Shown here piece by piece: positions 32,789 to 50,534 of a DNA stretch of 62,825 bases. Source of the DNA: Bacteroidales bacterium (lineage in GTDB: Bacteria; Bacteroidota; Bacteroidia; Bacteroidales; UBA12077); contig JANQHR010000003.1 in the NCBI GenBank assembly GCA_028282585.1, forward strand, positions 1 to 62,825, in the 5' to 3' direction. Below the pieces are notes generated by a model, which searched no databases, was not told the origin of the DNA, and saw nothing but the letters and a program-made list of their open reading frames with translations. Position numbers and translations under genes: made by a program. Numbering within the stretch: position 1 is the stretch's first letter; each line of letters starts with the position of its first letter.

Positions 32789-32816
32789 TTTGATTGATTT
32801 TTAAATAGGTTGTTGG

Positions 32817-33797: not shown

Positions 33798-33911
33798 AAA
33801 CAAATCTTATTAGTTCACAACCACTCATAAGGCGAAAAAAGAGCAGAATACCCCCAAAAGAAAATTAAAAATCTTTACTTTAGAATCAAATGGCTAATAA
33901 CAAATTAAAAG

Positions 33912-34451
33912 TTAACCATTTAAATTAATTTTTACTTGTTGTTTAATTCTTTTAATAGCAATACCTATTTGATTTTCTACTGTTTTTAATGAAAGATTAA
34001 GCTCTTCTGCTATTTCCTTATGTTTCATTTCTGAATAACGACTTAATCGAAATATTATCTGGCATTGCGATGGAAGTTGTTTTATGGCATCATCAACTAG
34101 TTTTATTAATTTTTCAGCATCAGAGTAATCAAAATTAGCTTCATCCGTTTCAATTTCTATATTCTCCAATGATTCGAAGGACGTTTTAGCTAATTTAGAT
34201 TTTAAATAATCTAAGCAGTCATTTCTAACCGATTTAAATAAGTAAGACTTTATATTGCTTTTTATATTAAGAAAGGTGCTTTTTTCCCAAAGTTCTTTGA
34301 AAAACGACTGAACTATGTCTTCAGCTAACATTTCATCATTTAGATATGTATATGCATATAGACATAAATCATGGTAATAATCAAAAAACAATTGTTCAAA
34401 AATTGCTTTATTGTTTACTGCTGAGGTCGGTATGGATTTATTATAAAACAC
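33912..34451 (-). CDS. ECF RNA polymerase sigma-70 factor
   Basis: AEDIVQ, SYLF.SVRN, LP.QC.IF.LSR, EIAEEL.LS.KTVENQI. Confidence 0.95.
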   Translation of the reverse strand: MFYNKSIPTSAVNNKAIFEQLFFDYYHDLCLYAYTYLNDEMLAEDIVQSFFKELWEKSTFLNIKSNIKSYLFKSVRNDCLDYLKSKLAKTSFESLENIEIETDEANFDYSDAEKLIKLVDDAIKQLPSQCQIIFRLSRYSEMKHKEIAEELNLSLKTVENQIGIAIKRIKQQVKINLNG

Positions 34452-34642: not shown

Positions 34643-35284
34643 ATGAGTGCTTATATATATAATTTGATACGGCAGGGAGAAAATCAAGAGCTTGATTTTA
34701 AGCATTCTATTAATGATTCAAAAAAAATTGCCAGATCGCTTGCAGCTTTTGCAAATACAGATGGAGGAAAACTTTTAGTAGGAGTTCGCGATAATGGAAG
34801 TATTGCTGGTGTACGAAGCGATGAAGAGTTCTATATGGTGCAAGCTGCTGCAGATTTATACTGTAAACCTGCATTACAATTTGAAACAAAAGTATGGGAG
34901 ATTGAAGGGAAAACGATTCTTGAAATAACTATCCCGAAAATTTCTGCCGAAAAGCTTACTACGGCACCGGACAAAAATGGGAAAGAAAAAGTCTTTATCA
35001 GGGTAAATGATGAAAATATAATCGTAAATAATATATATCTGAAAGCCTGGAATCAAAAAAAATTTGGGAAAGGTGTTTTAATAAGATATAATAAGCCTGA
35101 AAAAATACTATTTGAGTATCTGGAGGAAAACGAAAGTATTTCATTCTCTGGTTTTAAAAAGCTAATTAAACTTAACCGATATAAAGCAGAGAAAATTCTG
35201 GTCAATTTGTTGGTATTAGATTTGATCCAAATAGATTTTAATGATGACCAAATAAAGTATAAACTTTTAAAAAAAGAAGAATAA
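34643..35284 (+). CDS. AlbA_2 (Schlafen-like) domain protein with C-terminal winged helix
   Basis: GENQELDFK and AFANTDGGKLLVGV.D.G. Confidence 0.88.
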   Translation: MSAYIYNLIRQGENQELDFKHSINDSKKIARSLAAFANTDGGKLLVGVRDNGSIAGVRSDEEFYMVQAAADLYCKPALQFETKVWEIEGKTILEITIPKISAEKLTTAPDKNGKEKVFIRVNDENIIVNNIYLKAWNQKKFGKGVLIRYNKPEKILFEYLEENESISFSGFKKLIKLNRYKAEKILVNLLVLDLIQIDFNDDQIKYKLLKKEE

Positions 35285-36418: not shown

Positions 36419-36435
36419 TATATACGATTTATAAA

Positions 36436-36478
36436 GAAAAGTGCGATCGTTCTAAATTATGGGGAGATCGCCTTTTTT
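36436..36478. terminator. Imperfect, possibly bidirectional terminator between convergent genes
   Basis: aaaag-t-gcgatc...gatcgc-cttttt. Confidence 0.45.
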
Positions 36479-36481
36479 ATC

Positions 36482-37873
36482 TTACATCATTTCCCTTATT
36501 TTTTGAATCATATGTAAAACAGCTTCGGTATCCTGAATAATTTCCTGTTTTTGCTTGCTAATTTCTTCTGTTCTTGAATTTAATTCTTCATGCAGGTAAT
36601 GATGGCAATTTTCTATTTTGTTTAAATTGTTAAAAATTGCAGTAGCCATTAATTCACAAGAATCATAGCCGCAACTTGCACAATTTTTAATATCCGAATC
36701 CTCATGCTTATCCATTAATAAATAGATTTCTTGTAATTGCTTTTCACTTGGAATTTTAATTTCGGAAGTATTAGAGGATAGATCGTTATAACTTCTATCA
36801 TATAAATTTTTCTTCCAATATTTATTTACCGTGTTTTCAAACTTAGATACATAAGAAATATTATTTTCTTGGGTTTTATGAGTTTCCAGAGCTTCTGTTC
36901 TTCTTTGATATATATAAAACTCTAATTCATCGGGAGATTTTTCGTGGTTAGTTGTTCCGGTTCCCCCATTACATCCTAATTCACAATTCAAGCAATCTAT
37001 AAGTAAAGGAGACATTCCCTTTTTTAGTTGTTCAGGTAAGCGGTCAAGGTATTTATAAATTGTTTGAGGGCCTTCGATTTTTCGACTTAAATATCGAATA
37101 CTTGGAATTTTTCTTTCAGCAGTTTCTAATAAGCCTCCCGGAGTAGAGAACAGAACAGCTCTTTCAGCCGGATCATTGTCAAATTCAACTTCAGGAAAAT
37201 CATTTAAGTCAATTTTTTTATCTGAAAGATAATTTTGAATTTTAGTGATAGTTACATTATAATCTCCAATTCCTGTTTCTTCAAACTCAACTTTTTTGGC
37301 TAAACAGGGAGATACTACGAACATTTTATGGTTTTTAAACTCGGGGTAAAAATCTTTTACCATTTTCATGCTATGAACCATTGGACTATCGGCAGGAGCA
37401 AGATGCGGTATAAGTTCTGGTTTATAAATTTGAATATACCTTACTATTGCGGGGCAGGGCTGGGCAATAACCAATTTAGGCTTATTATTCTGAATGTGTT
37501 CAACATAAGATTTTACCGTAAGTTCTGCGCCAAAACTAACATCAAAGATTGCATCTATACCTAATGATTTTAACCAACCATTTAATTTTAAATACTGCTT
37601 AGGAAAGTTTGATGCAACAGCAGGAGCGACAATGGCAATAACTTTTTCCTTTTTTTCAAGGGCTTTCATTGCAATTTCAAAATCATCGACAGGAATTCTA
37701 GCATCGTGAGAGCATGCTTTTATACATTCTCCACATCCAATACATAAATTATTGTCTACCTCAATTGTGTCGTTAACACCATTATTGGAATACTTCGCTG
37801 TGCAAACAGCGATACACTGATGACAGTTAACGCATTTCTCTTTGTCAACTGCAAAAAAGGTAGTTTCAGTCAT
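36482..37873 (-). CDS. Putative sensory (group C-like) [FeFe]-hydrogenase-domain protein: 2[4Fe-4S] + H-domain + FeS domain + short coiled coil
   Basis: CVNCHQCIAVC and CIGCGECIKAC; variant H-cluster motifs AQPCP, SPCLAKKVE, DCLNCELGCNGG; C-terminal NCASCGYDSC...C. Confidence 0.85.
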   Translation of the reverse strand: MTETTFFAVDKEKCVNCHQCIAVCTAKYSNNGVNDTIEVDNNLCIGCGECIKACSHDARIPVDDFEIAMKALEKKEKVIAIVAPAVASNFPKQYLKLNGWLKSLGIDAIFDVSFGAELTVKSYVEHIQNNKPKLVIAQPCPAIVRYIQIYKPELIPHLAPADSPMVHSMKMVKDFYPEFKNHKMFVVSPCLAKKVEFEETGIGDYNVTITKIQNYLSDKKIDLNDFPEVEFDNDPAERAVLFSTPGGLLETAERKIPSIRYLSRKIEGPQTIYKYLDRLPEQLKKGMSPLLIDCLNCELGCNGGTGTTNHEKSPDELEFYIYQRRTEALETHKTQENNISYVSKFENTVNKYWKKNLYDRSYNDLSSNTSEIKIPSEKQLQEIYLLMDKHEDSDIKNCASCGYDSCELMATAIFNNLNKIENCHHYLHEELNSRTEEISKQKQEIIQDTEAVLHMIQKIREMM

Positions 37874-37884
37874 TAATGAATTTC

Positions 37885-39918
37885 TTAAGATTTGGTTTTA
37901 TACTTCTCTATTGTTTGTTTTAAATTTTCTTCTTGTACTTGCATTTCGTTGATCACATTTTTCAAATGATCTTCTTTTCGCCTCATTTCTTCCTGGGTAG
38001 CTTGAAGCTCTTCCATATTCTGGCGCATTTCCTCATCTTGAGCTGCCATTTCTTCGGCTTGTTGTTGCGACCGTTCTAATAATTCATTCGTCCGAATGCT
38101 AATTCTCACTGAAGAAAGGGTTGAGCCAATACTTTCAGCTAGTTTTTCAACGAATTCAATTTCATGCTTATCAAATGCGTTAAATGAAGCTATTTCTAAT
38201 ACCCCTAATACCTCATCTTCAAGCTTTAAAGGTACAATTAATAGACTGCCCGGGCTAGCACCTCCCAGACCAGACGTGATTTCCATATAATCTTGTGGAA
38301 GATCAGTCATGTAAACGGTTTTCTTCTCAATTGCGCATGTACCAATTAAACCTTCACCAATTTTGATATGTTTTTGCATATATTTTCTTCTGTTGTATGC
38401 AAATGCGGATAATAAATTGAAATGAATATTTTCTTTATTTTCATCATTTAAGATAAACACGCCTCCTTGATTGGCATTTAAATAATTGACAAGGTTCATT
38501 ATTATTTCAGTTGATAACATTTCAAGATTGTCGTTATTTTGTCTTAAAATATCTGCAAATTTTGTTAATCCTTCATTTGCCCATCTGCGTTTTTCGTCTT
38601 CATCTTTACGTTTGTTATCATCTTCTTCCGCTTTTACCAGGTTTGCTCTCATATCAAGCAATGACTTCCCAAGCACATCTTCATCACTTAACAAATCGAA
38701 CTTTTCATCTAAGTTACCCTGACCAATTGAATTTGCAAATTCAGCTTTTTGGTTTAATCCTTCCACTGACTGATTTAAAGCTTTAGCCATTTCTTCGATT
38801 TCGTCGCCGGATTCAATTTTTATTTTCATCTCTTCACCAATATGGCCTTTTGCAATCTTGTTAAGCAAATCAGTGATTTTGGTAATCGGATTAGTAATAT
38901 TTTTACCAATTAATGCAATTACAAGTGCCATTAATAATATTCCAATTACTCCAACAAATAATGATACTCTAAAATTTCGGATCGCCTCAGCCATTATAGT
39001 TCTTTCCGGCACTGATAAAGCAATTGACCACGGAGTATTATTTTCACCAACAAGTATTGGGGCATAAGTAACATAATTTTTAACTCCATTTTCGTCCTTA
39101 CTGGTATAACTAAATACTTCTCCTTTTTCAATATTACGGGCTATATTATATACCTTACTATCTTCAGGTAAGATATCTACAATGTTTTTGTTTAAAAGAT
39201 CTTTATCAGGATGTCCAACTATTAATCCTTTATTGGAAATTATGTAAGCATAACTTCCTTCAAAAGGTTTTATTTGTTCAACTAATTCCTGGAATTGAGT
39301 TAATGTGATATCAAAAGCAATAACAGCAACAAATTTTCCTTTATCAATTACAGGAGCTTTTAAACTAACCATAAGTAAAGATTCTCTGGTACCATCAGTT
39401 ACAACATCAAAATACGGTTCGTCAATCGATGGAACTAAGGTTGCTTTGGTTTTTGCATATAGAGGGGAATCACCATCAAGACTTCTCAGCTCAGTTTGAT
39501 CTTTTACAATTCCATTTTCTCTCCAAAAAGTGTGCGATACACGTCCGGTAGGTCTATCCCAATCAGGATCAATCATATTAAGTTCCCAACTTGACCATAG
39601 TGCATAAACATTTTCATTTTCTGCAAAAACATTATAATACATTTTATGCACTTTTTCTTGCCATTCATCTTTAGAGTAATCCTTATAAATTTTAAAAGCA
39701 TCAGCTAAAGATGATAATCCAGCTAATTCTAGATTTAGATTTGTTTTAATATCTTTTGCAGCTTCACTTACAAGATGATCAGTAACTTCAATTGCATCAT
39801 TATAAGCCATTTTACGGGCATTAAAGCTAATATATCCAATTGCAGCTACAAAAATAATAATTGAAGCAGAAATGATGAATAATTGTATTTTTTGTTGAAT
39901 TTTAAGCTTAAGTTTCAT
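37885..39918 (-). CDS. Membrane sensor dCache-HAMP-GAF-coiled coil (no PAS, no output domain)
   Basis: Two TM helices flanking a Cache domain (EPYFD, GHPD, PWSI), HAMP (GDEIEEM), GAF (GEGLIG..LIVPLK..GVLEIAS), then EEMRQNMEELQATQEE. Confidence 0.88.
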   Translation of the reverse strand: MKLKLKIQQKIQLFIISASIIIFVAAIGYISFNARKMAYNDAIEVTDHLVSEAAKDIKTNLNLELAGLSSLADAFKIYKDYSKDEWQEKVHKMYYNVFAENENVYALWSSWELNMIDPDWDRPTGRVSHTFWRENGIVKDQTELRSLDGDSPLYAKTKATLVPSIDEPYFDVVTDGTRESLLMVSLKAPVIDKGKFVAVIAFDITLTQFQELVEQIKPFEGSYAYIISNKGLIVGHPDKDLLNKNIVDILPEDSKVYNIARNIEKGEVFSYTSKDENGVKNYVTYAPILVGENNTPWSIALSVPERTIMAEAIRNFRVSLFVGVIGILLMALVIALIGKNITNPITKITDLLNKIAKGHIGEEMKIKIESGDEIEEMAKALNQSVEGLNQKAEFANSIGQGNLDEKFDLLSDEDVLGKSLLDMRANLVKAEEDDNKRKDEDEKRRWANEGLTKFADILRQNNDNLEMLSTEIIMNLVNYLNANQGGVFILNDENKENIHFNLLSAFAYNRRKYMQKHIKIGEGLIGTCAIEKKTVYMTDLPQDYMEITSGLGGASPGSLLIVPLKLEDEVLGVLEIASFNAFDKHEIEFVEKLAESIGSTLSSVRISIRTNELLERSQQQAEEMAAQDEEMRQNMEELQATQEEMRRKEDHLKNVINEMQVQEENLKQTIEKYKTKS

Positions 39919-39942
39919 AATTCATAAAAATTAAGTAATAAT

Positions 39943-42249
39943 CTAAGTACGGTAATCAGTAATATTAGTCGAAATTTTAAGTATTTTATAAACATTACCT
40001 TCCTCATTCCTTATGGGGGTGTAAGTCTCTGCAAATACTAATTCCTTACCGTTGACTTTCACTTTTGTAGTTTCTTTTTGAATTTTTCCAGCTCTTAACT
40101 CTTTCCAAAAGTTGTCATAAGCATCTTTTTGTTGAGCTGTAAACTCCATATTTAGTGAGTGATGAGTACCAACAATTTCTTCTCTTGATAAACCTACTAA
40201 ATTTAGATAGTAATCATTAACGCTTTGTATGTATCCATCCAGATCATATTCAATAACAAAACTTGAAGTATTAAGAGCTTCAACCAGGCCTTCCATTTCA
40301 GTACTTTTTCGCAATGATTCTTCTTGCGTAGCCTGCAGTTCTTCCATATTTTGACGCATTTCTTCTTCTTGAGACGCCATTTCTTCTGCCTGTTGCTGTG
40401 ATCTTTTTAATAATTCATTTGTACGAATATTTATTCTTACAGATGATAATGTTGAGCCAATGCTTTCTGCTAGTTTCTCAACAAATTCTATTTCATGTTT
40501 TTCAAATAAATTAAACGAAGCAATTTCCAATACACCTAATACTTCTTCTTCAAGTTTTAATGGAACTATTAATAAACTACCAGGATTTGAACCTCCTAAT
40601 CCTGAAGTAATTTCCATATAATCTTGAGGAATATCTGTCATGTAAATGGTTTTCTTTTCTATAGCACAATTTCCTACTAAACCTTCTCCTAATTCAATCT
40701 GTTTTTGCATAAACTTTCTTCTATCATATGCATAAGCTGAAAGAAGTTCAAAATATATATTTTCTTTATCATCGTCATTTAAAATAAATACTCCTCCCTG
40801 ATTTGCTTTTAAATAGTCAATAAGGTTCATAATTATTTCTGTGGCAAGCTTTTCTAAATTATCATTGTTTTGCCTTAATATGTCTCCGAATTTTGCTAAT
40901 CCTTCATTGGTCCATGTTCTTTTCTCATCTTCAATCTTACGTTTTTTATTTTCTTCTTCAGCATTTACAAGGCTTGCCCTCATTTCAAGTAAAGATTTTC
41001 CTAAAATATCATCGTTACTAAGTAATTCAAATTCTTCGTTTAAAATTCCTTTTCCAATAGAATTAGCAAATTCAGCTTTTTTATTCAGTCCTTCTACTGA
41101 TTGGTTCAATGCATAAGCCATTTCTTCAATTTCATCTCCTGATTTGATTTTAATTTTCATTTTTTCGTCTATATGCCCTTTTGCAACTTTCTTAAGCAGA
41201 TCAGTAATTTTTGTTATTGGATTTGTAATGTTTTTACCAATTATAGCAATAACTATTACAATTAAAAGAATTCCAATTATTCCAACAATCAAGGAGATTC
41301 TGAAATTTCTTATTGCATCTGCCATAATGGTATTAACCGGCACCGAAATTGCTATAGACCAGGGAGTATTTGTTTTACCAATAAAAATAGGCGCATAAGA
41401 AATATAATTTTCTACTCCATTTTCATCCTTACTTATATAACTTAACGGTTTTCCTTCCTTAATATTTTTTTCAATAGAATATTCGCTATTATCGGTAGGA
41501 AACAATACACTAATTTCTTTACTCAGTAGTTCTTTATCAGGATGTCCTGCAATAAGCCCTCCATTTGACAATAAAAACGCATAGCTTCCTTTAAAAGGTT
41601 TGATTTCTTCGACAAGTTCCTGAAAACGGTCCAGAGTAATATCAATGGCAACAATACCAATATATTTCCCATTTTCCATTATAGGCGCATTTAGACTTGT
41701 CATTAAAAACTTATCGGCTTTATCTTCAGTAAAAACATCTTCATATGGTTCCCATATGGATGGTATTTTTCGAGTTTTAATTTGACTATACAATGCTGGG
41801 TCGCCATCTAAACTTCTATATTCAAAATTATTTTTAATCACTCCGTTCTCTCTCCAGTAAATCATAGCGTACCTTCCAGTTGGTTTATTCCACTCTGGAT
41901 CAATAGCATTTAGTTCCCAACTGTCCCATAAACTATAAATGTGCGGACTATTTTTAAATACTTTATAATACATATTTGAGAACAATTCCTGCCATTGCTC
42001 ATTTGGCATTGTTTTATAGACATGAAAAGCATCAGCAAGTGTTTTAACTAATGCAAGGTCAGCATCCAATTTAGCTTTTATCTCGTTTGCAGCTTCATGC
42101 ACATAACGGTCTGTTATTTCCGTAGCATCGTTATATGCCATTGTTCGTGCTTTAAAGCTAATATATCCTACTGCAGCAATATAAATAATAATTGATGCAG
42201 AAATAATAAAAATCTGTATCTTTTGCTGTATCTTAAGTTTTATCTTCAT
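39943..42249 (-). CDS. Membrane sensor dCache-HAMP-GAF-coiled coil-PAS
   Basis: Same architecture plus a terminal PAS (IEYDLDG..VN..EIVG.HH..FW..ETYTPI). Confidence 0.9.
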   Translation of the reverse strand: MKIKLKIQQKIQIFIISASIIIYIAAVGYISFKARTMAYNDATEITDRYVHEAANEIKAKLDADLALVKTLADAFHVYKTMPNEQWQELFSNMYYKVFKNSPHIYSLWDSWELNAIDPEWNKPTGRYAMIYWRENGVIKNNFEYRSLDGDPALYSQIKTRKIPSIWEPYEDVFTEDKADKFLMTSLNAPIMENGKYIGIVAIDITLDRFQELVEEIKPFKGSYAFLLSNGGLIAGHPDKELLSKEISVLFPTDNSEYSIEKNIKEGKPLSYISKDENGVENYISYAPIFIGKTNTPWSIAISVPVNTIMADAIRNFRISLIVGIIGILLIVIVIAIIGKNITNPITKITDLLKKVAKGHIDEKMKIKIKSGDEIEEMAYALNQSVEGLNKKAEFANSIGKGILNEEFELLSNDDILGKSLLEMRASLVNAEEENKKRKIEDEKRTWTNEGLAKFGDILRQNNDNLEKLATEIIMNLIDYLKANQGGVFILNDDDKENIYFELLSAYAYDRRKFMQKQIELGEGLVGNCAIEKKTIYMTDIPQDYMEITSGLGGSNPGSLLIVPLKLEEEVLGVLEIASFNLFEKHEIEFVEKLAESIGSTLSSVRINIRTNELLKRSQQQAEEMASQEEEMRQNMEELQATQEESLRKSTEMEGLVEALNTSSFVIEYDLDGYIQSVNDYYLNLVGLSREEIVGTHHSLNMEFTAQQKDAYDNFWKELRAGKIQKETTKVKVNGKELVFAETYTPIRNEEGNVYKILKISTNITDYRT

Positions 42250-42257
42250 AGTTTATT

Positions 42258-44567
42258 TCATTCATTGAATTCCTTTATTGAATTCGAGATTTTTAGTATT
42301 CTTAAAATAGATCCATTTTCATCGAGAATTGGGGTGTATACTTCAATAAATTCAGTTCTTTTACCATCAACTGAATACGTTGCTTTTTCTTTTCTTGTTT
42401 TACCAGATGACAAATCATTCCAAAATTTATCATATTCGGCTTTTTGCTTGGTAGTGAACTCCATTTTATCGGAATGATGAGCACCAAGTACCTCATCTCT
42501 TCTTAAATTAAGAAGATTAAGATAGTTTTCATTTACTTTGGTAATAAATCCATCGGAACTATATTCAATAATGCAACTTGATTCTTCCAATGCATGAAAG
42601 AAACTTTCCATTTCGGAATTTTTTCTACCGGCTTCTTCCTGTGTAGCCTGAAGTTCCTCCATGTTTTGGCGCATTTCTTCTTCTTGAGCAGCCATTTCTT
42701 CAGATTGCTGCTGGAATTTTTCTAAAAGCTCATTGGTTTGTATATTTATTTTTACAGATGATAATGTAGCAGCTATATTTTCTGCAACTTTTTCAATAAA
42801 TTCAATTTGATATTTTTCGAGTTTTTTGAATGACGCAATCTCAATTACTCCATACACTTTTTCTTCCATTTTAAGAGGAACCACTACTAATGAACGAGGA
42901 TTTGAATCGCCTAATCCGGATGTAATTGAAATATATTCTTCAGGTAAATCTTCTATATAGGTAGTTAATTTCTCCAGAGCTACAGCACCTACAATTCCAT
43001 CACCAATTTCAATTCGTTTTTCTAAATGTTTTTTTCTATCAAAAGCAAATGCAGCAACTAAGTCAAGGAAAACATTACTTTTATCTTCATCATTAATAAG
43101 AAATAATCCACCTTGATTAGCTTCTAAATAATGAACCAGGTTCTTTATGATTTGATATGAAAGCTCATCTAAATCATCATTATTTTGACGTAAAATATCA
43201 GCAAATTTGGCTAATCCTTCATTGCTCCAGGTTCTTTTTTTGTCTTCAATTTTTCTATTTTCCTCATCAACTCTTGCTTTCTTTAGACTATCTCGCATTT
43301 CCACTAATGCTTTACCAAGCATATCATCATCACTTAATAATTTAAATTCGTGATCTAAATCTCCTGATTCAATCCTATTTGCAAAGTCAGTCTTCTTAAT
43401 TAACCCATCAACTGACGTTTTTAAAGCATAAGTCATTTCTTCTATTTCATCGCCTGATTTTACATTTAAATCTAACTGTTGGTCAGTTTTTCCTTTAGCA
43501 AGTTCTTTAAGGAAATCAGTAATATTTTGAATAGGGTCAGAAATGTTTTTAGTTATTACATAAATTGCAAAGCTTATAATCAGAATTCCAATGAAACCAA
43601 CAATCAAAGAAATCATAAAATTCCTGTCCGCTTGTGCCATAATCGAATTAACAGGAACAGAAATACCCAAGAACCATGGTGTATTGGTTCTTCCAATAAT
43701 AATTGGAGAAAAAGCAATATAATGCGTTTTACCAAGTTCATCAAGTACCTCTAAATTAAAACTTTCTCCATTCTCAATGATTTCTTGAATATTAAACTCC
43801 TCGCTTGATTTTAAGTTAAATTCGGCTAATTGATTTAAAAAATGAGTTTCCGGGTGACCAGCGTATTTACCTTCTTCTGTAATTAAGAAAGCATAGCTGC
43901 CTTCAAACTGCGAAAGATTTATTTTTTCAACCATTTTTTGGAATCGTGCCAGAATAATGTCTATCCCAACCATTCCATGATATTCATTATTAACAATAAT
44001 TGGGGTTACTAAACTGGTCATTAATTTTGAGGTTTCACCTTCATCCGTAAATACGTCAAAATATATTGGTAATGTCATTTCTCTGGCCTGAGTTTTAATG
44101 TTAGCGTAGGTTGGATTATCCCCATCCAAACTTCTGATGTCTTGTTTTTGTTGAACACGGCCATTTATGCGAGAAAATACATTAGCAATTCGTCCGGTAG
44201 GTCTATCCCAATTTTCATCTATCATACTTAGCTCCCAACTATCCCATAATTTGTAAAAAGCTGGATTATCACGATAAATATTATCGTACATTTTAATAAA
44301 TAAAGGATCCCATTCTTCTCTGGGCATGTCTTTATACACCCTAAAAGCATTGGCTAAGGTTCTAACAACTGCCATATATTCGTTTAAATCCGATTGCATT
44401 TTGTATGCAAACTTTTCGGCATTTGTGTTTACTAATTCAACAGAATCTTTATAACTTGTTTTTTTAGTATTAAAACTTATATATCCTATCGCAGTTGCAT
44501 AAATTACAACTGATAAAGAAATAAGATAAAGTTGCATTTTGTTTTTTAAACCAAGCTTTAATTTCAT
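42258..44567 (-). CDS. Membrane sensor dCache-HAMP-GAF-coiled coil-PAS
   Basis: Paralogue of its neighbours; terminal PAS (IEYSSDG..EVYTPI). Confidence 0.9.
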   Translation of the reverse strand: MKLKLGLKNKMQLYLISLSVVIYATAIGYISFNTKKTSYKDSVELVNTNAEKFAYKMQSDLNEYMAVVRTLANAFRVYKDMPREEWDPLFIKMYDNIYRDNPAFYKLWDSWELSMIDENWDRPTGRIANVFSRINGRVQQKQDIRSLDGDNPTYANIKTQAREMTLPIYFDVFTDEGETSKLMTSLVTPIIVNNEYHGMVGIDIILARFQKMVEKINLSQFEGSYAFLITEEGKYAGHPETHFLNQLAEFNLKSSEEFNIQEIIENGESFNLEVLDELGKTHYIAFSPIIIGRTNTPWFLGISVPVNSIMAQADRNFMISLIVGFIGILIISFAIYVITKNISDPIQNITDFLKELAKGKTDQQLDLNVKSGDEIEEMTYALKTSVDGLIKKTDFANRIESGDLDHEFKLLSDDDMLGKALVEMRDSLKKARVDEENRKIEDKKRTWSNEGLAKFADILRQNNDDLDELSYQIIKNLVHYLEANQGGLFLINDEDKSNVFLDLVAAFAFDRKKHLEKRIEIGDGIVGAVALEKLTTYIEDLPEEYISITSGLGDSNPRSLVVVPLKMEEKVYGVIEIASFKKLEKYQIEFIEKVAENIAATLSSVKINIQTNELLEKFQQQSEEMAAQEEEMRQNMEELQATQEEAGRKNSEMESFFHALEESSCIIEYSSDGFITKVNENYLNLLNLRRDEVLGAHHSDKMEFTTKQKAEYDKFWNDLSSGKTRKEKATYSVDGKRTEFIEVYTPILDENGSILRILKISNSIKEFNE

Positions 44568-44582
44568 ACCAGACTTATTTTA

Positions 44583-46877
44583 TCATTGATAATCACTAAT
44601 GTCTATTGCTAAAAATAGAATTTTCTCAAAACTTTCATTGATTAATACAGGAGTGAACGAAGTTACTAATTTTAATTCGTTACCGGCTTTATCCTTTAAA
44701 AAAGTAATTTCTTGATGAGAGTTTCCGTTCATAACTGTATTTAGTATTTTTTGAAACTTTGCAACATCTTTTTCAGCTACAAACTCTTCAATTTCTTTTC
44801 CCATTATTTCATTTGAAGTATAACCAAATTTAGTTATAAATAGCTCGTTAGCTAAAATAAGTGAAGCATTTAAGTCAAATTCAGCTTTTAATAAAAACTT
44901 ATTAATTCCATTTAAAATTCCGGTAATTTCATCACTTCTTCTTGTAGATTCTTCCTGTGTAGCCTGCAGTTCTTCCATATTCTGCCGCATTTCTTCTTCT
45001 TGCGCAGCCATTTCTTCTGCTTGTTGCTGCGATTGTTCAAGCAAATATGAGGTTTTAGAATTGATTTTAACAGATTTTAATGCAGAAGCAATACTTTCTG
45101 CAACTTGCTCAGCAAAATCAATTTCGTACTTTTTTATTTTATTGAAAGATGCTAACTCAATTACACCAAGAATTTCATTCTCTGTTTTTAAAGGAATAAT
45201 TAATAAACTATTAGGACTTGATTCACCTAAACCAGATGTAATCTCTATATAATCTTCGGGAATTTCGGTTAAATATATTGTACTTTTTTCTGCGGCACAA
45301 GTTCCTATTAATCCTTCACCAAGCTCGATTCTTTTTTTATGGTGCTTTTCGCGATCATAGGCAAATGCAGAAATAAGGTCAAATACAACAGTAGATTTTT
45401 CCTCATCATTTAAAAGAAACAAACCTCCCTGGTTAGCATTCATGTAATAAACCAGGTTTTTAATGATATCATTTGCCAGTGAATCAATATTGTCATTGTT
45501 CCTGCGAAGTATATCAGCGAATTTCGCTAATCCTTCATTAGCCCATCGGCGTTTATGATCCTCCTGCTCCCTTTTTTTTTCATCAGATTTAGCCTTTAAT
45601 AAACTATTTCGCATGCCAACAAGAGATTGGCCAAGTTTATCGTCATCACTTAACAATTCTAATTCTTCTGTTATATTTCCGGAACCTATGTGGTTAGCAA
45701 AATCAGCTTTTCGATTTAAACCATCAATTGAAGTGTTTAAAGCTAAAGCCATTTCACCAGCTTCATCCTTAGATCTAATAGTTACTTTTAAGGATTCGTC
45801 AATTTTACCTTTTGCAATATCCTTAAGCGTATTTGTAACTTTTACTATGGGTTGAGTAATGTTTCGGGCAATAATCCAAATTACAATAGTTAAAAGGATT
45901 AATCCAATAAAACTAACAAGAAGAGCTTTAATCAGAATAGATTTTGCTTTTAAAGTAATGACATTATAAGGTACAACAATAGCTAACGCCCATGGTGTAT
46001 CTATTCCATCAATTACTAAAGGGGCAAATACATAAAAATCCTTTTGACCATATTCATTTTTATAATTGAAAGAAAAATTTAATCCATCTTTTATATTTTC
46101 TATAATATGAGATTGCTGGGTAAGTTCAGGGAATTCTGTACCAATTAATTTTCCCATTAATTCTTTATTTGGATGAGCTACAAATGTTCCATCATTCGAA
46201 AGGAGAAATGCATAACTCATTTGAAACGGATTTATTTTTACAATGATATTTTGAAATCGTTGTAAATCAACGTCAACACCTGCTAATCCAATAAAAGTAT
46301 TTCCAAGTTTTATCGGGACTGATATATTTGCATTTATATAGGCATCTTCAGCTTTTCCTGTTGGTGACCATAATTTAGGATCAACAATCATCGGATTTCC
46401 GGAGACTTTCATTTTATAATAATTACTTGTCAATTCATCTCCTTCCGTATTAAGTTTTGTTTCGATACGAGATATGACTCCATTTTGATCTTTTACCCAT
46501 CCGTTTAAATAACGACCAAAAGGTTTATTCCATTCCGGATCTATGTGATTAAGCTCCCAACTTGTTGCTACTGCCAGGTAATGAGGATTTTCTGTTATAA
46601 TGTGCAATTGTTGCTCAAGAAAAATGTTATTCCAGCTTTCCCAATCGATTTTTTGATATGCTTGTCCTGATTCTGCCAGAGTTTTTACAATTTTGAAATC
46701 GGCTGCTAATTCCGATTTAATTAAATTTGCATATTCATGCGCATTTTTATTCGCAATCTCTTTAGCTTCTTCTAATACTAATTGCCTTGATTTAGTGGTA
46801 ATATAACCAACAGATGCTATAAAAATTAACATCGAAGTTGAGAGTATATATACCAGCATTTTTATATTGATCTTCAT
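44583..46877 (-). CDS. Membrane sensor dCache-HAMP-GAF-coiled coil-PAS (most divergent paralogue)
   Basis: Same core; PAS with AEFDL..AN..FGY..EIMG. Confidence 0.9.
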   Translation of the reverse strand: MKINIKMLVYILSTSMLIFIASVGYITTKSRQLVLEEAKEIANKNAHEYANLIKSELAADFKIVKTLAESGQAYQKIDWESWNNIFLEQQLHIITENPHYLAVATSWELNHIDPEWNKPFGRYLNGWVKDQNGVISRIETKLNTEGDELTSNYYKMKVSGNPMIVDPKLWSPTGKAEDAYINANISVPIKLGNTFIGLAGVDVDLQRFQNIIVKINPFQMSYAFLLSNDGTFVAHPNKELMGKLIGTEFPELTQQSHIIENIKDGLNFSFNYKNEYGQKDFYVFAPLVIDGIDTPWALAIVVPYNVITLKAKSILIKALLVSFIGLILLTIVIWIIARNITQPIVKVTNTLKDIAKGKIDESLKVTIRSKDEAGEMALALNTSIDGLNRKADFANHIGSGNITEELELLSDDDKLGQSLVGMRNSLLKAKSDEKKREQEDHKRRWANEGLAKFADILRRNNDNIDSLANDIIKNLVYYMNANQGGLFLLNDEEKSTVVFDLISAFAYDREKHHKKRIELGEGLIGTCAAEKSTIYLTEIPEDYIEITSGLGESSPNSLLIIPLKTENEILGVIELASFNKIKKYEIDFAEQVAESIASALKSVKINSKTSYLLEQSQQQAEEMAAQEEEMRQNMEELQATQEESTRRSDEITGILNGINKFLLKAEFDLNASLILANELFITKFGYTSNEIMGKEIEEFVAEKDVAKFQKILNTVMNGNSHQEITFLKDKAGNELKLVTSFTPVLINESFEKILFLAIDISDYQ

Positions 46878-46967: not shown

Positions 46968-47687
46968 CTAATAAATTTGTATGGAGAATTTTTTTAGTTC
47001 TTTGGATAAACTTTTAGCATTTCCTAAGATCGAATCCATTAATTTCCAGAACTTTTTTCCATGATTCTTTTCTACAGTATGACAAAGTTCGTGTATTATT
47101 ACATAATCAATTAAATGACTAGATAACCGCATTAGGTGTAAGTTTAGGTTTATGTTATTTTGTGCACTACAACTTCCCCAAAGAGTTTTAGCATTTTTTA
47201 TGAATGTTTTATTGAACTTGAAGTTTAATTGTTGAGCTAGAAATTCCACTCTGCCAGGTAGATACGCTTTTGCTTCAATTCTTAGAGCTTTGGTTATAAC
47301 AGTGCGAATTATTTCTTGTATACGTTCATCTTTCACAGGTATATGTTCCGGATATTTAATAATTATTTTTTCTGATGTAATTAATGATTTAACTCTGTCT
47401 GTTTTTTCCGATGAAATGTTTAACTTCCTATATTTTGTAGAAAAATCTGTTGATGGTGTAAAAACAGTTTGTTTGTTTTCGATTTTTTCAATTTTTGGAA
47501 TATGATTCAATATCCAATCACGTTTTTTTTCAACAACGTCCTTTGCAAAATTATAACTGACATAATGTGGTAGATTTACTACTACTCCTTTCAAAGGGCG
47601 AATAGTTATACTTACATTTTTTGATCGTTTATTTTTTTGGAACGTAACATTTCCAATACGATCAACATGGATGATTTTATTGGGCAT
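46968..47687 (-). CDS. YgjP/DUF45 (M48/SprT-like) metal-dependent hydrolase
   Basis: WGSCS and DYVIIHELCH...NHGK.FW. Confidence 0.92.
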   Translation of the reverse strand: MPNKIIHVDRIGNVTFQKNKRSKNVSITIRPLKGVVVNLPHYVSYNFAKDVVEKKRDWILNHIPKIEKIENKQTVFTPSTDFSTKYRKLNISSEKTDRVKSLITSEKIIIKYPEHIPVKDERIQEIIRTVITKALRIEAKAYLPGRVEFLAQQLNFKFNKTFIKNAKTLWGSCSAQNNINLNLHLMRLSSHLIDYVIIHELCHTVEKNHGKKFWKLMDSILGNAKSLSKELKKFSIQIY

Positions 47688-47711: not shown

Positions 47712-50534
47712 TTAACTTAAAAACTTTGAAATTTTTTGCAAAAGAGCTTGGAAAGTTATTGGTTTTAGAATATAATCACTATACCCTATTTCTTGCATTT
47801 CAAACCTTTGATCATCCGAGGCATATGCTGTTTGCGCTATAACAGGAACCTTACAACCACTTGCTTTTAATTTTTCCACTGCTTCATGACCAGTCATGAT
47901 TGGCATATTAATATCCATTAAAATTAAATCATAATTAGGTTCTTCTTTAACCATTTTCAAAACTTCTTTACCATCTTTTGCCCAGAAAATATTAGCTTTT
48001 GTTCTTTCAAGAAAAGTACGTAAAAGTTTATAGTTTGCTTCAACATCTTCGGCAATTAAGATTTTTTTTGAACTCCAGTCAACATTATCGTCAAAAGCTA
48101 CATTTGGTTTATTATTTTTCTCGGCTTTGATTAGATCAAAAGGAATTGTAAAACTAAATTTAGAACCTTCATCTTTATTAGATTCTACCCATAGCTTTCC
48201 TCCTAATAATTCTACCAATCGTTTACAAAGAGCTAAGCCTACTCCTGTTCCTCCATATTTGCGAGTTGTAGATTCATCAGCTTGTCTAAACTGATCGAAA
48301 ATAAATTCTTGATCTTTTTCTCCAATTCCTATCCCTGTATCTTTTACATAACAAACTAAATTTTCATTTTGTATATAATATCCAAATTCAATTAAGCCCT
48401 TTTCTGTAAATTTAAAAGCATTGTCCAAAAGGTTTGAAAATATTTGTTTTAATCTTTTTAAATCGGTAACAATTGAAAGCTCTTTTTCGCTTATTTCTTT
48501 TTTTAAGCTAAGTTCAATATTGGTTAGCTTCATACTATTTTTTAATTCCGTGAACTCAATCAACAATTCATCTAGCATTGTATTAAAATTGCTTTTTGTC
48601 TTGGTTATGATAAGTGTAGATGATTCAATTTTAGAAATATCAATTATATTATCTATAATATCAAGAAGTAATTTACCACTATTTGCCATTAACCTTAGAT
48701 ACTCTTTTTGATCAACCTTTGGAAATTCTTTTGAATTTAATAAGGTTGAAAAACCGATAATTGCATTTAAGGGAGTTCTGATCTCGTGAGAAAGATTTGT
48801 TAAAAAAGAAGTTTTTAAGCGGTCCGATTCTTCCGCTTTAATCTTTGAGGTATATAATTGTTGTTCAAATTCCTTTTGATCTGTTATGTTTCGGTAAATA
48901 ATATAATAACCAATTGGTTTGTCGTTTAATTTAACCGGTAATCCAATTATCGAAACATAAACTTTTTTTTTGTCTTTTGTAGCACGAATTGCTTCAATTT
49001 GACTTGTAGAACCTTCAAGAAAAGTTCTATTAAGTAACGTAGCCTCTTTAATTAACTCCGGAGGAACAATTAGGTCATCTAATCTTTTATTAGCAGTTTC
49101 TATATTTGTATAACCAAATAGTTCGGTAAAAGAAGCATTCATTTTTTGTATATAACCATCTTTATTAAGATATACAATTGCTTCAGGCGATTTTTCGAAT
49201 AATTTTTCGTAGTGAGCTTTTCGTTCTTCCGATAATTTTATTTCAGATATCATTTTATTAGCGGAACTAGCAAGAGCTTTAAATTCTGTTAAGTTTATAC
49301 CCGATTCATCTATTAGTATATTTTCAGATGAAGCCAGGTTAAAAAATCGAATAAATGATTGAATAATGTTTTGTGCTTTTTTGGAAAGGTAAAAAGCAAA
49401 TGTATATATCATTACAAAGAATATACTTAACCAAATAACAAAGAATATGATATTTTTAAAAATATTTCTTTTTAATTCTGCCTTTTTTGCTTCTAATACC
49501 TGATTTATTTCTTCGATATAAACTCCTGCACCAACCATCCACTGCCATTGAGGAATACCTTTTACAAAAGACATTTTTTGCCCGATTTCATCAGTTGTAA
49601 GTTTTCTCCAGGAATAGTATATAAAATCTCCATCCGGATTTTTAACGGCTTTTCGCTCTTCCTGAATCACCTTTATTCCATTTGGATCCTCCAGGTTCCA
49701 CACATTTTTTTTCTCTAAAATAATTTCTCCATCCATTAATAGTGCGTCACCTTCATAAGTATTCACAAAAATGTATCCTTCATTGCCAAATCTGTAATTT
49801 GACAGCCATTGTAAAACCTCTTGTTTAATAATACTATTGAAATCATCATAAAATTCACTTGCTCCAATATACCAATTAAGAGGTTCGACAAGTTTTACAT
49901 ACGTCAGTCTTTCTGATCCAATTACCGTATCACCATCTGATTTTTTCCAGTAGTTGGAAATAAATCCTCCATGGTCCGATCGAATAATATTTATTATATC
50001 CTGAATGAAATAATTACCCATTTCATCTCGCTGATAATATAAATTCTGTCCTTCATATTCAGCCATTTCAGGTAAAAGATATATATTACCTACTAAATCT
50101 CCTATTAAATAACGACCACCTGTAATTTCAATAGGACTAAGGGCATCAATTATTAGATTTTTGATTTCCGTTGGAGATTTGGTATCTTTATTTTCATTAT
50201 AAATATTAAGCGCAATATCCGCAGCAATATCGACACTCTTTTTTAAAGATAATCTTATATTAGTTTCAGTTTGTTGTACATTAAAGTTTATATAACTAAC
50301 TGCTCTTTCTGTTTCTTTCTTTATATTATCTTTTTGTGATTCAATATAATTTCTTTGTATATCAGAAATTTCAGATCTTAAATTGCTGTATTCTCTTTTA
50401 ATCCAAAAATAAAGAACTACAACAAACATGATAAAAACTAATATAATTACCTGAGTGAGAAAAACGCTTACAAGTTGAACCTCTTTATTGGGTGATTTTT
50501 TAAAAAAATTTATAAAATTCTTGAAACTAATCAT
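47712..50534 (-). CDS. Hybrid sensor histidine kinase (Cache-PAS-HisKA-HATPase-REC)
   Basis: SHEIRTPLNAI H-box, NLLDNAFKFT, DTGIGI, GGTGVGL, REC DLILMDINMP; periplasmic Cache_2-type repeats. Confidence 0.95.
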   Translation of the reverse strand: MISFKNFINFFKKSPNKEVQLVSVFLTQVIILVFIMFVVVLYFWIKREYSNLRSEISDIQRNYIESQKDNIKKETERAVSYINFNVQQTETNIRLSLKKSVDIAADIALNIYNENKDTKSPTEIKNLIIDALSPIEITGGRYLIGDLVGNIYLLPEMAEYEGQNLYYQRDEMGNYFIQDIINIIRSDHGGFISNYWKKSDGDTVIGSERLTYVKLVEPLNWYIGASEFYDDFNSIIKQEVLQWLSNYRFGNEGYIFVNTYEGDALLMDGEIILEKKNVWNLEDPNGIKVIQEERKAVKNPDGDFIYYSWRKLTTDEIGQKMSFVKGIPQWQWMVGAGVYIEEINQVLEAKKAELKRNIFKNIIFFVIWLSIFFVMIYTFAFYLSKKAQNIIQSFIRFFNLASSENILIDESGINLTEFKALASSANKMISEIKLSEERKAHYEKLFEKSPEAIVYLNKDGYIQKMNASFTELFGYTNIETANKRLDDLIVPPELIKEATLLNRTFLEGSTSQIEAIRATKDKKKVYVSIIGLPVKLNDKPIGYYIIYRNITDQKEFEQQLYTSKIKAEESDRLKTSFLTNLSHEIRTPLNAIIGFSTLLNSKEFPKVDQKEYLRLMANSGKLLLDIIDNIIDISKIESSTLIITKTKSNFNTMLDELLIEFTELKNSMKLTNIELSLKKEISEKELSIVTDLKRLKQIFSNLLDNAFKFTEKGLIEFGYYIQNENLVCYVKDTGIGIGEKDQEFIFDQFRQADESTTRKYGGTGVGLALCKRLVELLGGKLWVESNKDEGSKFSFTIPFDLIKAEKNNKPNVAFDDNVDWSSKKILIAEDVEANYKLLRTFLERTKANIFWAKDGKEVLKMVKEEPNYDLILMDINMPIMTGHEAVEKLKASGCKVPVIAQTAYASDDQRFEMQEIGYSDYILKPITFQALLQKISKFLS

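What the first reader, a model, noticed from the sequence alone, without database searches (positions are those of the whole stretch)
36482..46877. Array of four output-less Cache-HAMP-GAF(-PAS) receptors ending in a hydrogenase-like sensor
Seen: five co-oriented genes with 8-24 bp gaps. The four receptors have diverged periplasmic Cache domains but a strongly conserved cytoplasmic core (RW.NEGLAKF.DILR, GAF, EEMRQNMEELQATQEE). None has a kinase, MCP hairpin, cyclase or phosphatase domain. Three end in PAS; the fourth stops after the coiled coil and is followed directly by an FeS/H-domain protein that also ends in a coiled coil. Inference: an uncharacterised chemoreceptor-like signalling system in which inputs (periplasmic ligands plus H2/redox) are pooled through coiled-coil hetero-oligomers and passed to a trans-acting partner.
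Basis: partly seen in the sequence, partly recalled or inferred. Interest (0 to 1): 0.85.

Follow-up and report, generated by a model that had tools for sequence, protein, structure and literature searches.

The report
Output-less sensor array with hydrogenase-like partner
Four membrane sensors with no enzymatic output and a hydrogen-sensor-like iron-sulfur protein sit in one gene cluster, and they belong to a very large unstudied sensor family that is repeatedly encoded beside the methylation enzymes bacteria normally use to tune chemotaxis receptors.

Summary
Five minus-strand genes, 8-24 bp apart, encode three dCache-HAMP-GAF-helix-PAS receptors, one receptor ending in a short helical tail, and a PAS-less sensory-type [FeFe]-hydrogenase-like protein. 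None has an output domain.

The receptors belong to a large unnamed family (4334 representatives at E<=1e-30; 0 of 46 sampled carry an output domain). It is built on a HAMP-like/GAF/signalling-helix module. That module is homologous to the part of RsbK-type kinases that a CheR-like enzyme methylates.

In 301 Bacteroidia genomes, 32 of 39 module-bearing genomes have CheB. In 18 of those 32 a module gene lies within 10 kb of CheB (0.58 expected), mostly in genomes without chemoreceptors. The usual cluster is CheR-CheB-small GAF-SiaA-like phosphatase-SiaB-SiaC. This genome has such a cluster, plus a second member directly behind cheB.

Stand-alone hydrogenase-like genes always follow a short-tailed family member (11 of 11 loci; 0 of 71 fused forms), although this is one clade.

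Best reading: methyl-accepting, kinase-free input subunits that signal in trans, with the hydrogenase-like sensor docking on the short receptor. Methylation, docking and the output partner are inferred. The complex prediction could not be run.

The parts
44583..46877 (-). Receptor 1 (P0004, 764 aa): TM, dCache_1, TM, HAMP, HAMP-like, GAF, signalling helix, PAS. No output domain.
42258..44567 (-). Receptor 2 (P0003, 769 aa), same architecture.
39943..42249 (-). Receptor 3 (P0002, 768 aa), same architecture.
37885..39918 (-). Short-tailed receptor (P0001, 677 aa): same module up to the signalling helix, then a 33-aa helical tail in place of PAS.
36482..37873 (-). Stand-alone sensory-type [FeFe]-hydrogenase-like protein (P0005, 463 aa): 2x[4Fe-4S] motifs, H-domain, C-terminal Cx2Cx4Cx16C, 37-aa helical tail. 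No PAS and no transmitter.
40318..40365 (-). Invariant helix motif EEMRQNMEELQATQEE in receptor 3. The same motif lies at 37987-38034, 42633-42680 and 44949-44996 in the other three genes. Proposed Glu methylation and recognition site.
   Evidence: Coordinates computed from the residue numbers.
37888..37986 (-). C-terminal tail of the short receptor (residues 645-677), conserved in all HydS-linked short receptors.
36485..36595 (-). C-terminal tail of the hydrogenase-like protein (residues 427-463). It starts where homology to MCP-fused relatives ends.
36605..36682 (-). Cx2Cx4Cx16C motif (C398, C401, C406, C423), the extra C-terminal [4Fe-4S] site of putative sensory hydrogenases, directly before the tail.
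   Evidence: Motif as described in PMC8163306 (passage).
46968..47687 (-). YgjP-like metallopeptidase gene, 90 bp upstream of receptor 1 on the same strand. Syntenic with receptor arrays in 9 of 79 family loci.
47712..50534 (-). Hybrid histidine kinase (dCache_2, PAS, HisKA, HATPase_c, REC), the first gene of the co-directional cluster. Syntenic in 6 of 79 family loci. Lacks the family module.

Best explanation
The four receptors belong to a very large, unnamed family of sensor proteins. The family shares a cytoplasmic module of a HAMP-like helix pair, a GAF domain and a signalling helix with invariant Glu pairs. It ends in a family-specific PAS domain or a short helical tail, never in an enzyme.

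Proposed mechanism (inferred unless marked otherwise):
1. Ligand binding to each diverged periplasmic dCache domain is passed through HAMP and GAF to the signalling helix.
2. Dedicated CheR and CheB enzymes methylate and demethylate that helix, as RsbM does on the homologous helix of RsbK. This gives adaptation.
3. The signal leaves through protein contacts of the PAS domain or tail to a partner acting in trans.
4. The best partner candidate is the SiaA-like PP2C phosphatase of this genome. It carries the same module and heads a SiaB/SiaC-type partner switch encoded next to CheR-CheR-CheB.
5. The fifth gene is a PAS-less sensory-type [FeFe]-hydrogenase that has lost its own transmitter. It most likely docks by its C-terminal helix on the tail of the short receptor, so that H2 or redox state enters the same pathway.

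Shown here: the architecture, the family-wide lack of output domains, module homology to RsbK-like kinases, gene linkage to CheR/CheB, and the strict receptor-hydrogenase gene pairing.

Inferred only: methylation, tail docking, and the identity of the output.
For: Architecture and lack of output:
- Domain calls.
- 0 of 46 sampled representatives carry an output domain; 38 of 46 have PAS.
- Long relatives are mostly sensor plus GAF plus many PAS.

Module homology:
- The module aligns over its whole length with HAMP-GAF-helix-HisKA hybrid kinases at 31-33% identity.
- RsbK (CHASE3-HAMP-GAF-S-helix-HK-REC) is methylated on its S-helix by the methyltransferase RsbM (PMC4574943, passages).

Own genome:
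- P0245 (module, 2 PAS, SpoIIE) lies in the cluster CheR-CheR-CheB(no REC)-small GAF-P0245-SiaB family kinase-SiaC family protein.
- P0366 (module, 3 PAS, no output) lies directly after REC-CheB at the end of the che operon.

Survey of 301 Bacteroidia genomes:
- Module found in 39, CheB in 100, MCPsignal over cut-off in 11.
- 32 of 39 module genomes have CheB.
- All 12 genomes with a module match at E<=1e-44 have CheB, and 8 of these 12 have no MCP.
- In 18 of 32 genomes a module gene is within 10 kb of CheB, against 0.58 expected at random.
- Of 12 fetched regions, 9 hold the CheR-CheB-small GAF-PP2C cluster. In 5 an output-less member lies beside or within about 700 bp of CheR.

Hydrogenase-like protein:
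- All FeS and H-cluster cysteines are invariant in 43 stand-alone homologues.
- The C299 equivalent is lost and the Cx2Cx4Cx16C motif is present.
- HydE, HydF and HydG are present in the genome.
- 8 of 8 complete stand-alone forms have a short-tailed member immediately upstream, against 0 of 71 fused forms. With the window, L020 and L024 this makes 11 of 11 loci.
Against: - No CheR or CheB gene lies in the window.
- Only 5 of 79 family loci have a CheR and 3 of 79 a CheB within 10 kb, so most members would have to be modified in trans.
- The helix does not fit the full 10-residue MCP methylation consensus (recalled from memory). This genome's own 7 MCPs each show that consensus 2-4 times. Only the half-site EExxAT is present in the family helix.
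- The invariant helix could be conserved for partner binding or dimerisation alone.
- The receptor-hydrogenase pairing is compatible with a single evolutionary origin. All 11 stand-alone forms fall in one supported set of 13 rows, so it is one conserved association, not 11 independent ones.
- Related genomes are not independent, which inflates the adjacency statistic.
- The PAS domains of the receptors resemble only other family members, not P0245 or the neighbouring kinase, so nothing points to a specific PAS partner.
- There are no expression data and no structural or complex model.
Confidence: 0.55

Rival explanations
1. The receptors and the hydrogenase-like protein feed the hybrid histidine kinase encoded at the head of the same co-directional cluster (47712-50534). 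They would act as accessory sensors that modulate it through direct contacts.
For: Same strand, with 24 bp and 90 bp gaps to YgjP and the first receptor. The order kinase-YgjP-array recurs in related genomes: YgjP in 9 and the kinase in 6 of 79 family loci, in arrays whose kinase orthologues are only 45-69% identical.
Against: 52 of 79 family loci hold a single member with no such kinase. No neighbour is shared by more than 9 of 79 loci. The kinase lacks the family module, and its PAS is not similar to the receptors' PAS. One array (L045) has YgjP but no kinase. The recurrence may be plain synteny within one lineage.
Confidence: 0.15
2. The family is not methylated. The invariant helix is a dimerisation or partner-binding surface, and linkage to CheR/CheB reflects a shared regulon or another substrate in those clusters, such as the PP2C protein or the small GAF protein only.
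For: The helix misses the N-terminal half of the MCP methylation consensus that this genome's own MCPs show. Most family genes are not next to CheR/CheB.
Against: CheR/CheB-linked genes carry the same module whatever their output: none, PP2C or kinase (L208 has CheR-CheB followed by a module-bearing kinase). 8 of the 12 genomes with a strong module match have CheB but no MCP. The homologous helix of RsbK is methylated (PMC4574943, passages). Glu pairs on the helix are invariant in 46 representatives that are only 31-44% identical overall.
Confidence: 0.2
3. The genes are decayed or truncated sensor kinases or chemoreceptors with no present function.
For: Relatives with HisKA/HATPase/REC or SpoIIE after the same module exist (P0192-P0198 and P0188).
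Against: All five frames are intact. Each of the four receptors has its own orthologue at 72-91% identity in the same order in two other genomes. The output-less form is the rule in a family of thousands. The C-terminal PAS is family-specific and conserved.
Confidence: 0.02
4. The GAF domain binds a small molecule such as a cyclic nucleotide, and the proteins act as membrane-bound second-messenger receptors or buffers rather than as transducers of periplasmic signals.
For: GAF is present in 46 of 46 representatives and is the best-conserved globular part.
Against: Not tested here. It does not explain the diverse N-terminal sensor domains (dCache_1, Cache_3-Cache_2, dCache_3, hemerythrin), the HAMP domains, or the CheR/CheB and hydrogenase links.
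Confidence: 0.05

Closest known systems
RsbK/RsbM of Bacillus cereus: a hybrid sensor kinase with a methylatable signalling helix and its CheR-type methyltransferase
   Same: Both have the order sensor domain, HAMP, GAF, signalling helix. RsbK-like hybrid kinases of the protein databases align with the family module over its whole length at 31-33% identity. Family genes are linked to CheR-type genes. RsbK is methylated on the helix (PMC4574943, passages).
   Different: The family has no HisKA, HATPase or REC after the helix. CheR comes together with a REC-less CheB here, whereas RsbM is described as an orphan methyltransferase (same paper, passage). B. cereus RsbK itself was not available for alignment. 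The original 2012 paper on the methylation was not seen.
Methyl-accepting chemotaxis proteins (MCPs)
   Same: Both have a transmembrane dCache-HAMP input and paralogue arrays with diverged ligand domains. Glu-rich helices are linked by gene neighbourhood to CheR/CheB. One family member sits at the end of this genome's che operon.
   Different: There is no MCPsignal hairpin, so no CheA/CheW docking site. The helix fits only half of the methylation consensus. Most genomes with the family have no MCP at all.
Putative sensory [FeFe] hydrogenases: group C (TmHydS, M2f; HydDB C1-C3) and group D (TamHydS, M2e)
   Same: Shared features are two N-terminal [4Fe-4S] motifs, an H-domain with the cluster cysteines, loss of the proton-relay Cys299, and a C-terminal Cx2Cx4Cx16C motif. 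Ser and Leu stand at the positions of Met353 and Met497, as described for TamHydS (PMC8163306, passage). That last alignment was made by eye from the motifs.
   Different: The architecture has no PAS, like group D. But the nearest sequence relatives (55-61% identity) are fused to MCP, PAS-kinase or PAS-PP2C modules, like HydDB group C (PMC5037454, table passage). The 37-aa tail and the obligate short-tailed receptor gene upstream are not described in the passages I read.
SiaABCD partner switch of Pseudomonas aeruginosa (PP2C SiaA, kinase SiaB, SiaC, cyclase SiaD)
   Same: The candidate output cluster in this genome has a SiaA-like PP2C (165 bits against NF038263, below its equivalog cut-off), a SiaB family kinase (178 bits, over the cut-off of 85) and a SiaC family protein. 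The pathway is as summarised in PMC9239204 (passage).
   Different: This cluster lies outside the window. It is preceded by CheR-CheR-CheB and a small GAF protein. It is followed by a TerB-ABC transporter protein rather than a diguanylate cyclase. Its link to the window's receptors is inferred only.

Membership tests
Methyl-accepting chemotaxis protein | MCP signalling (kinase-control) domain PF00015 | tested here: not met
   Absent from all four receptors. The same model finds this genome's own MCP genes (8 matches in 7 open frames).
Methyl-accepting chemotaxis protein | Methylation sites fitting [ASTG][ASTG]xx[EQ][EQ]xx[ASTG][ASTG] (consensus recalled from memory) | tested here: not met
   0 full sites in 9 family proteins, against 2-4 in each of 7 own MCPs. 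Only the half-site EExxAT is present.
Methyl-accepting chemotaxis protein | Genes linked to CheR and CheB | tested here: inconclusive
   Not met in the window. Met at family level: 18 of 32 genomes have a module gene within 10 kb of CheB, and two own-genome members sit next to CheB/CheR.
RsbK-type methylatable sensor kinase | Sensor, HAMP, GAF, signalling helix in this order, with homologous sequence | tested here: met
   (31-33% identity to RsbK-like hybrid kinases P0211, P0217, P0220; B. cereus RsbK itself not aligned)
RsbK-type methylatable sensor kinase | HisKA, HATPase_c and receiver domains after the helix | tested here: not met
RsbK-type methylatable sensor kinase | Glutamate methylation of the helix by a CheR-type enzyme | not testable with these tools
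   Needs a SAM-labelling assay or mass spectrometry.
Putative sensory [FeFe] hydrogenase (HydS, groups C/D) | H-cluster cysteine ligands and two N-terminal [4Fe-4S] motifs | tested here: met
   C140, C190, C297, C301 and eight N-terminal Cys are invariant in 43 homologues. Fe_hyd_lg_C E=2e-34. Best solved relatives are CpI-type hydrogenases.
Putative sensory [FeFe] hydrogenase (HydS, groups C/D) | Loss of the proton-relay Cys299, and a C-terminal Cx2Cx4Cx16C motif | tested here: met
   QPCP stands in place of the double-Cys motif. C398-x2-C401-x4-C406-x16-C423 is present. Criteria taken from PMC8163306 (passage).
Putative sensory [FeFe] hydrogenase (HydS, groups C/D) | PAS domain after the C-terminal cluster (group C / M2f only) | tested here: not met
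   No PAS. The architecture is M2e-like.
Putative sensory [FeFe] hydrogenase (HydS, groups C/D) | Maturases HydE, HydF and HydG in the genome | tested here: met
   All three are over their curated cut-offs.
Putative sensory [FeFe] hydrogenase (HydS, groups C/D) | H2 binding with low turnover, and signalling | not testable with these tools
   Needs spectroscopy and genetics.
SiaABC-type partner switch (proposed downstream pathway) | PP2C phosphatase, SiaB family kinase and SiaC family protein encoded together | tested here: met
   Met in own-genome contig C6, not in the window. The same set occurs in 9 of 12 fetched CheB regions.

The most novel reading that the evidence does not exclude
Bacteroidia, most of which lack chemoreceptors, may run a kinase-free, CheR/CheB-adapted sensory pathway. 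In it, thousands of output-less HAMP-GAF-helix receptors would serve as methyl-accepting input subunits for a PP2C/SiaB/SiaC partner switch. PAS-less sensory [FeFe] hydrogenases would signal by docking on a dedicated short-tailed receptor of this family. That would give the first concrete transducer for this class of H2 sensor and a non-MCP substrate class for CheR/CheB.
Probability: 0.3. Interest if true: 0.85.

Novelty: new variant of a known kind. Interest (0 to 1): 0.7.

Why it matters
Three open points would become testable.

1. What CheR and CheB do in bacteria without chemoreceptors. Here CheB was found in 100 of 301 Bacteroidia genomes, but MCPs in only 11.
2. How output-less sensor proteins, a large and ignored class, pass on their signal.
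3. How putative sensory [FeFe] hydrogenases without a PAS domain transmit. A paper on TamHydS calls this unresolved (PMC8163306, passage read).

The window offers a compact natural test case: four ligand sensors and one H2/redox sensor on a shared, near-identical cytoplasmic module.

Tried and rejected
- Truncated-kinase reading: rejected.
- Cryptic catalytic domain: none by Pfam or NCBIfam, and no unassigned stretch of useful length.
- A universal neighbour of family genes: none. All-against-all clustering of 921 ORFs from 79 loci gave no neighbour in more than 9 loci.
- SiaC as a profile marker: not discriminating. It occurs in 168 of 301 genomes and has 14 matches in this genome.
- PAS similarity to the neighbouring kinase or to P0245: none. 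Only family members hit.
- Tail of the hydrogenase-like protein as a remnant of an MCP helix: no significant similarity.
- Sigma-70 promoter and terminator scans: at chance level (78 found against 75.9 expected; 5 against 6.7), and of little meaning in this phylum.
- Expression: no RNA holder listed. The only run holding the stretch is a DNA run that is probably its source.
- Solved structures: nothing covers the GAF-helix module. Only the PAS, Cache and PP2C parts match.
- Literature: five full-text searches found no paper on this family, on CheR/CheB-linked GAF or PP2C clusters, or on the receptor-hydrogenase pair. Subscription journals and supplements were not visible.
- Complex prediction of the short receptor (residues 455-677) with the hydrogenase-like protein: no verdict, because the job failed.

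Full report
**Observation.** In transcription order the gaps are 15, 8, 24 and 11 bp.

- Pfam gives dCache_1, HAMP and GAF in all four receptors. Three also have a C-terminal PAS; the 677-aa one does not.
- The 463-aa protein has two ferredoxin-type motifs, the [FeFe]-hydrogenase H-domain (E=2e-34) and the PF04060 FeS motif.
- No kinase, MCP, cyclase or phosphatase family appears in any of the five. NCBIfam adds only far-sub-threshold hits for the receptors.
- The paralogues are 45-67% identical overall. By segment: periplasmic part 29-56%, HAMP-like linker 64-73%, GAF 54-83%, helix 73-84%.
- The assigned segments leave no gap long enough for a hidden catalytic domain.

The cluster continues upstream with a YgjP-like peptidase gene (90 bp gap) and a hybrid histidine kinase (24 bp gap). 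It is bounded by a divergent HlyD-like gene and a convergent TPR gene.

**The family.** Close homologues are abundant in Bacteroidales and Marinilabiliales assemblies. The short 676-703-aa form is conserved as its own type.

- A search of 1.84 billion representatives with the 257-aa core found 15092 proteins at E<=0.001 and 4334 at E<=1e-30.
- I took every third of the 137 newly listed proteins among the best 150, giving 46 proteins. All 46 have GAF, 38 have PAS, 24 HAMP, 18 dCache_1 and 2 hemerythrin. None has an output domain.
- Relatives of 1345-2650 aa are mostly sensor plus GAF plus many PAS. A few carry HisKA/HATPase/REC (P0192-P0198) or SpoIIE (P0188).

So the lack of an output is a family trait. 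The window's genome holds at least eleven module proteins:

- The four in the window.
- Five scattered output-less ones. Four were analysed (C49, C79, C92, C106); one on C111 was only seen as a match.
- P0245 and P0366, described below.

**Relation to a known methylatable module.** The stretch from the HAMP-like pair through GAF to the helix aligns along its whole length with HAMP-GAF-helix-HisKA hybrid kinases at 31-33% identity. In Bacillus cereus, RsbK has the order CHASE3-HAMP-GAF-S-helix-kinase-receiver. The methyltransferase RsbM methylates it on the S-helix (PMC4574943, passages read; the original 2012 paper was not seen).

**Link to CheR and CheB.** The genome has a full che operon on contig C108 and a second CheR-CheR-CheB set on contig C6.

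- The C6 set continues with a small membrane GAF protein and then P0245. P0245 has the family module (helix EEQLRQNAEEMRATQEEL), two PAS and SpoIIE. After it come a SiaB family kinase (over the NCBIfam cut-off), a SiaC family protein and a TerB-ABC transporter protein.
- On C108, the output-less member P0366 follows directly after REC-CheB.

I then surveyed 301 Bacteroidia genomes of at least 90% completeness:

- The module (E<=1e-30) was found in 39, CheB in 100, and MCPsignal over its cut-off in 11.
- 32 of the 39 module genomes have CheB.
- All 12 genomes with a module match at E<=1e-44 have CheB. In 8 of these 12, no MCP was found.
- A module match lies within 10 kb of a CheB match in 18 of 32 genomes, against 0.58 expected from random placement. 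That holds for 22 of 74 module matches. Related genomes are not independent, so the statistic overstates.

Twelve such regions were fetched:

- Nine show CheR-CheB(no REC)-small GAF-module-PAS-SpoIIE followed by a SiaB-like gene, mostly also a SiaC-like one.
- In five (L201, L204, L207, L211, L212) an output-less member lies beside or within about 700 bp of CheR. Four of these carry the helix EEEMRQNMEEM[QT]ATQE or a near variant.
- In L208, CheR-CheB precede a module-bearing kinase.

The module therefore travels with CheR/CheB whatever follows it.

**Evidence against methylation.**

- The helix does not fit the ten-residue MCP methylation consensus (recalled from memory). The genome's seven MCPs show that consensus 2-4 times each. 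Only the half-site EExxAT is present in the family helix.
- Among 79 family loci from public genomes, only 5 have a CheR and 3 a CheB within 10 kb. 52 loci hold a single family gene.
- No neighbour recurs in more than 9 loci.
- There is no CheR or CheB in the window.

**The hydrogenase-like protein.**

- All eight N-terminal cysteines, the H-cluster cysteines (C140, C190, C297, C301) and the C-terminal C398/C401/C406/C423 are invariant in 43 stand-alone homologues.
- The proton-relay cysteine is replaced (QPCP), and the Cx2Cx4Cx16C motif is exact. Both are hallmarks of putative sensory hydrogenases (PMC8163306, passage; PMC13104023, passages).
- HydE, HydF and HydG are present in the genome.
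- Relatives at 46-63% identity in the same order mostly sit in much longer frames. Of seven fused ones scanned, three carry PAS plus SpoIIE, three MCPsignal and one PAS plus HATPase_c. These match the linkage types of HydDB group C (PMC5037454, table passage).
- The stand-alone 459-495-aa form is a populated Bacteroidales type. Its next relatives (55-61%) are MCP fusions.

I examined 80 loci:

- 8 are complete stand-alone genes. All 8 have a short-tailed family member immediately upstream on the same strand.
- 71 are fused forms. None has a family member within 6 kb.
- One is cut by a contig end.

With the window, L020 and L024 this gives 11 of 11 loci, with gaps of 2-84 bp. The upstream partners range from 360 to 679 aa and have different N-terminal parts.

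Homology to MCP-fused relatives stops at residue 426, and the 37-aa tail is unique. A quick tree places all 11 stand-alone forms in one supported set of 13 rows (SH-aLRT 95). The pairing is therefore one conserved association, not repeated invention. One array (L055) ends in a 678-aa member with no hydrogenase-like gene after it; I did not inspect its tail.

**Locus history.**

- Two related genomes keep the same 4+1 order, with each receptor 72-91% identical to its counterpart.
- Other relatives have 3-5 PAS-type receptors after kinase-YgjP, with or without the short receptor-hydrogenase pair.

**Mechanism.**

- Shown: the architecture, the family-wide lack of output, the module homology, the gene linkage to CheR/CheB and to the PP2C switch, and the receptor-hydrogenase gene pairing.
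- Inferred: the invariant Glu pairs are methylated; the PAS or tail contacts a trans partner; P0245 is that partner; the two tails bind each other.

**Novelty.** Five full-text searches found nothing on this family or on these clusters. The parts are all known kinds. The combination appears undescribed within what I could search: output-less receptors, CheR/CheB, a PP2C partner switch, and a transmitter-less H2 sensor paired with a receptor. The tallies include unpublished genomes (G313; G236). No conclusion depends on them.

Noticed in passing
own genome contig C108:33534-34442 (L041:5535-6443, minus strand): A 302-aa soluble histidine-kinase-like protein (P0367) lies between cheR and cheD in the che operon. 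Its H-box reads T-N-E where the phospho-accepting His is expected, which suggests a pseudokinase. An orthologue at 55% identity sits at the same place in G029 (L212).
   Followed up: partly
own genome contig C6:60446-63541 (L040:447-3542, minus strand): The CheR-CheB-PP2C-SiaB-SiaC cluster ends in a 1031-aa TerB plus ABC_tran plus ABC2_membrane protein. ORFs of about 1000 aa follow the SiaC-like gene in L202, L203 and L212, a 1254-aa one in L209, and end-cut long ones in L204, L205 and L210. This may be the regulated target in place of a diguanylate cyclase.
   Followed up: partly
301 Bacteroidia genomes: CheB methylesterase was found in 100 of 301 genomes, but the MCP signalling domain over its cut-off in only 11. 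Many CheB matches lie in frames of about 190-210 aa without a receiver domain, or in frames longer than 900 aa.
   Followed up: partly
own genome: There are 14 matches to the SiaC family in this one genome, and 168 of 301 Bacteroidia genomes have at least one. SiaB/SiaC-type partner switches seem heavily expanded in this class.
   Followed up: no
family representatives: 2 of 46 sampled family members carry a hemerythrin domain and 1 a Tll0287-like domain. The module therefore also serves cytoplasmic O2/iron-type sensors, in parallel with the hydrogenase-like partner.
   Followed up: no
window 30143-34451, minus strand: An ECF sigma factor (33912-34451), a FecR-like anti-sigma (32817-33803) and an STN/Plug TonB-dependent receptor (30143-32788) form a classic trans-envelope signalling trio just beside the cluster.
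   Followed up: no
window 34643-35284, plus strand: A 213-aa protein with a Schlafen AlbA_2 domain lies between the ECF trio and the TPR gene.
   Followed up: no
window about 36430-36478, minus strand: Directly after the stop of the hydrogenase-like gene there is an inverted repeat (GCGATC ... GATCGC) followed by a T-rich run. It may be the terminator of the cluster. Its loop is too long for the scan to list it.
   Followed up: no
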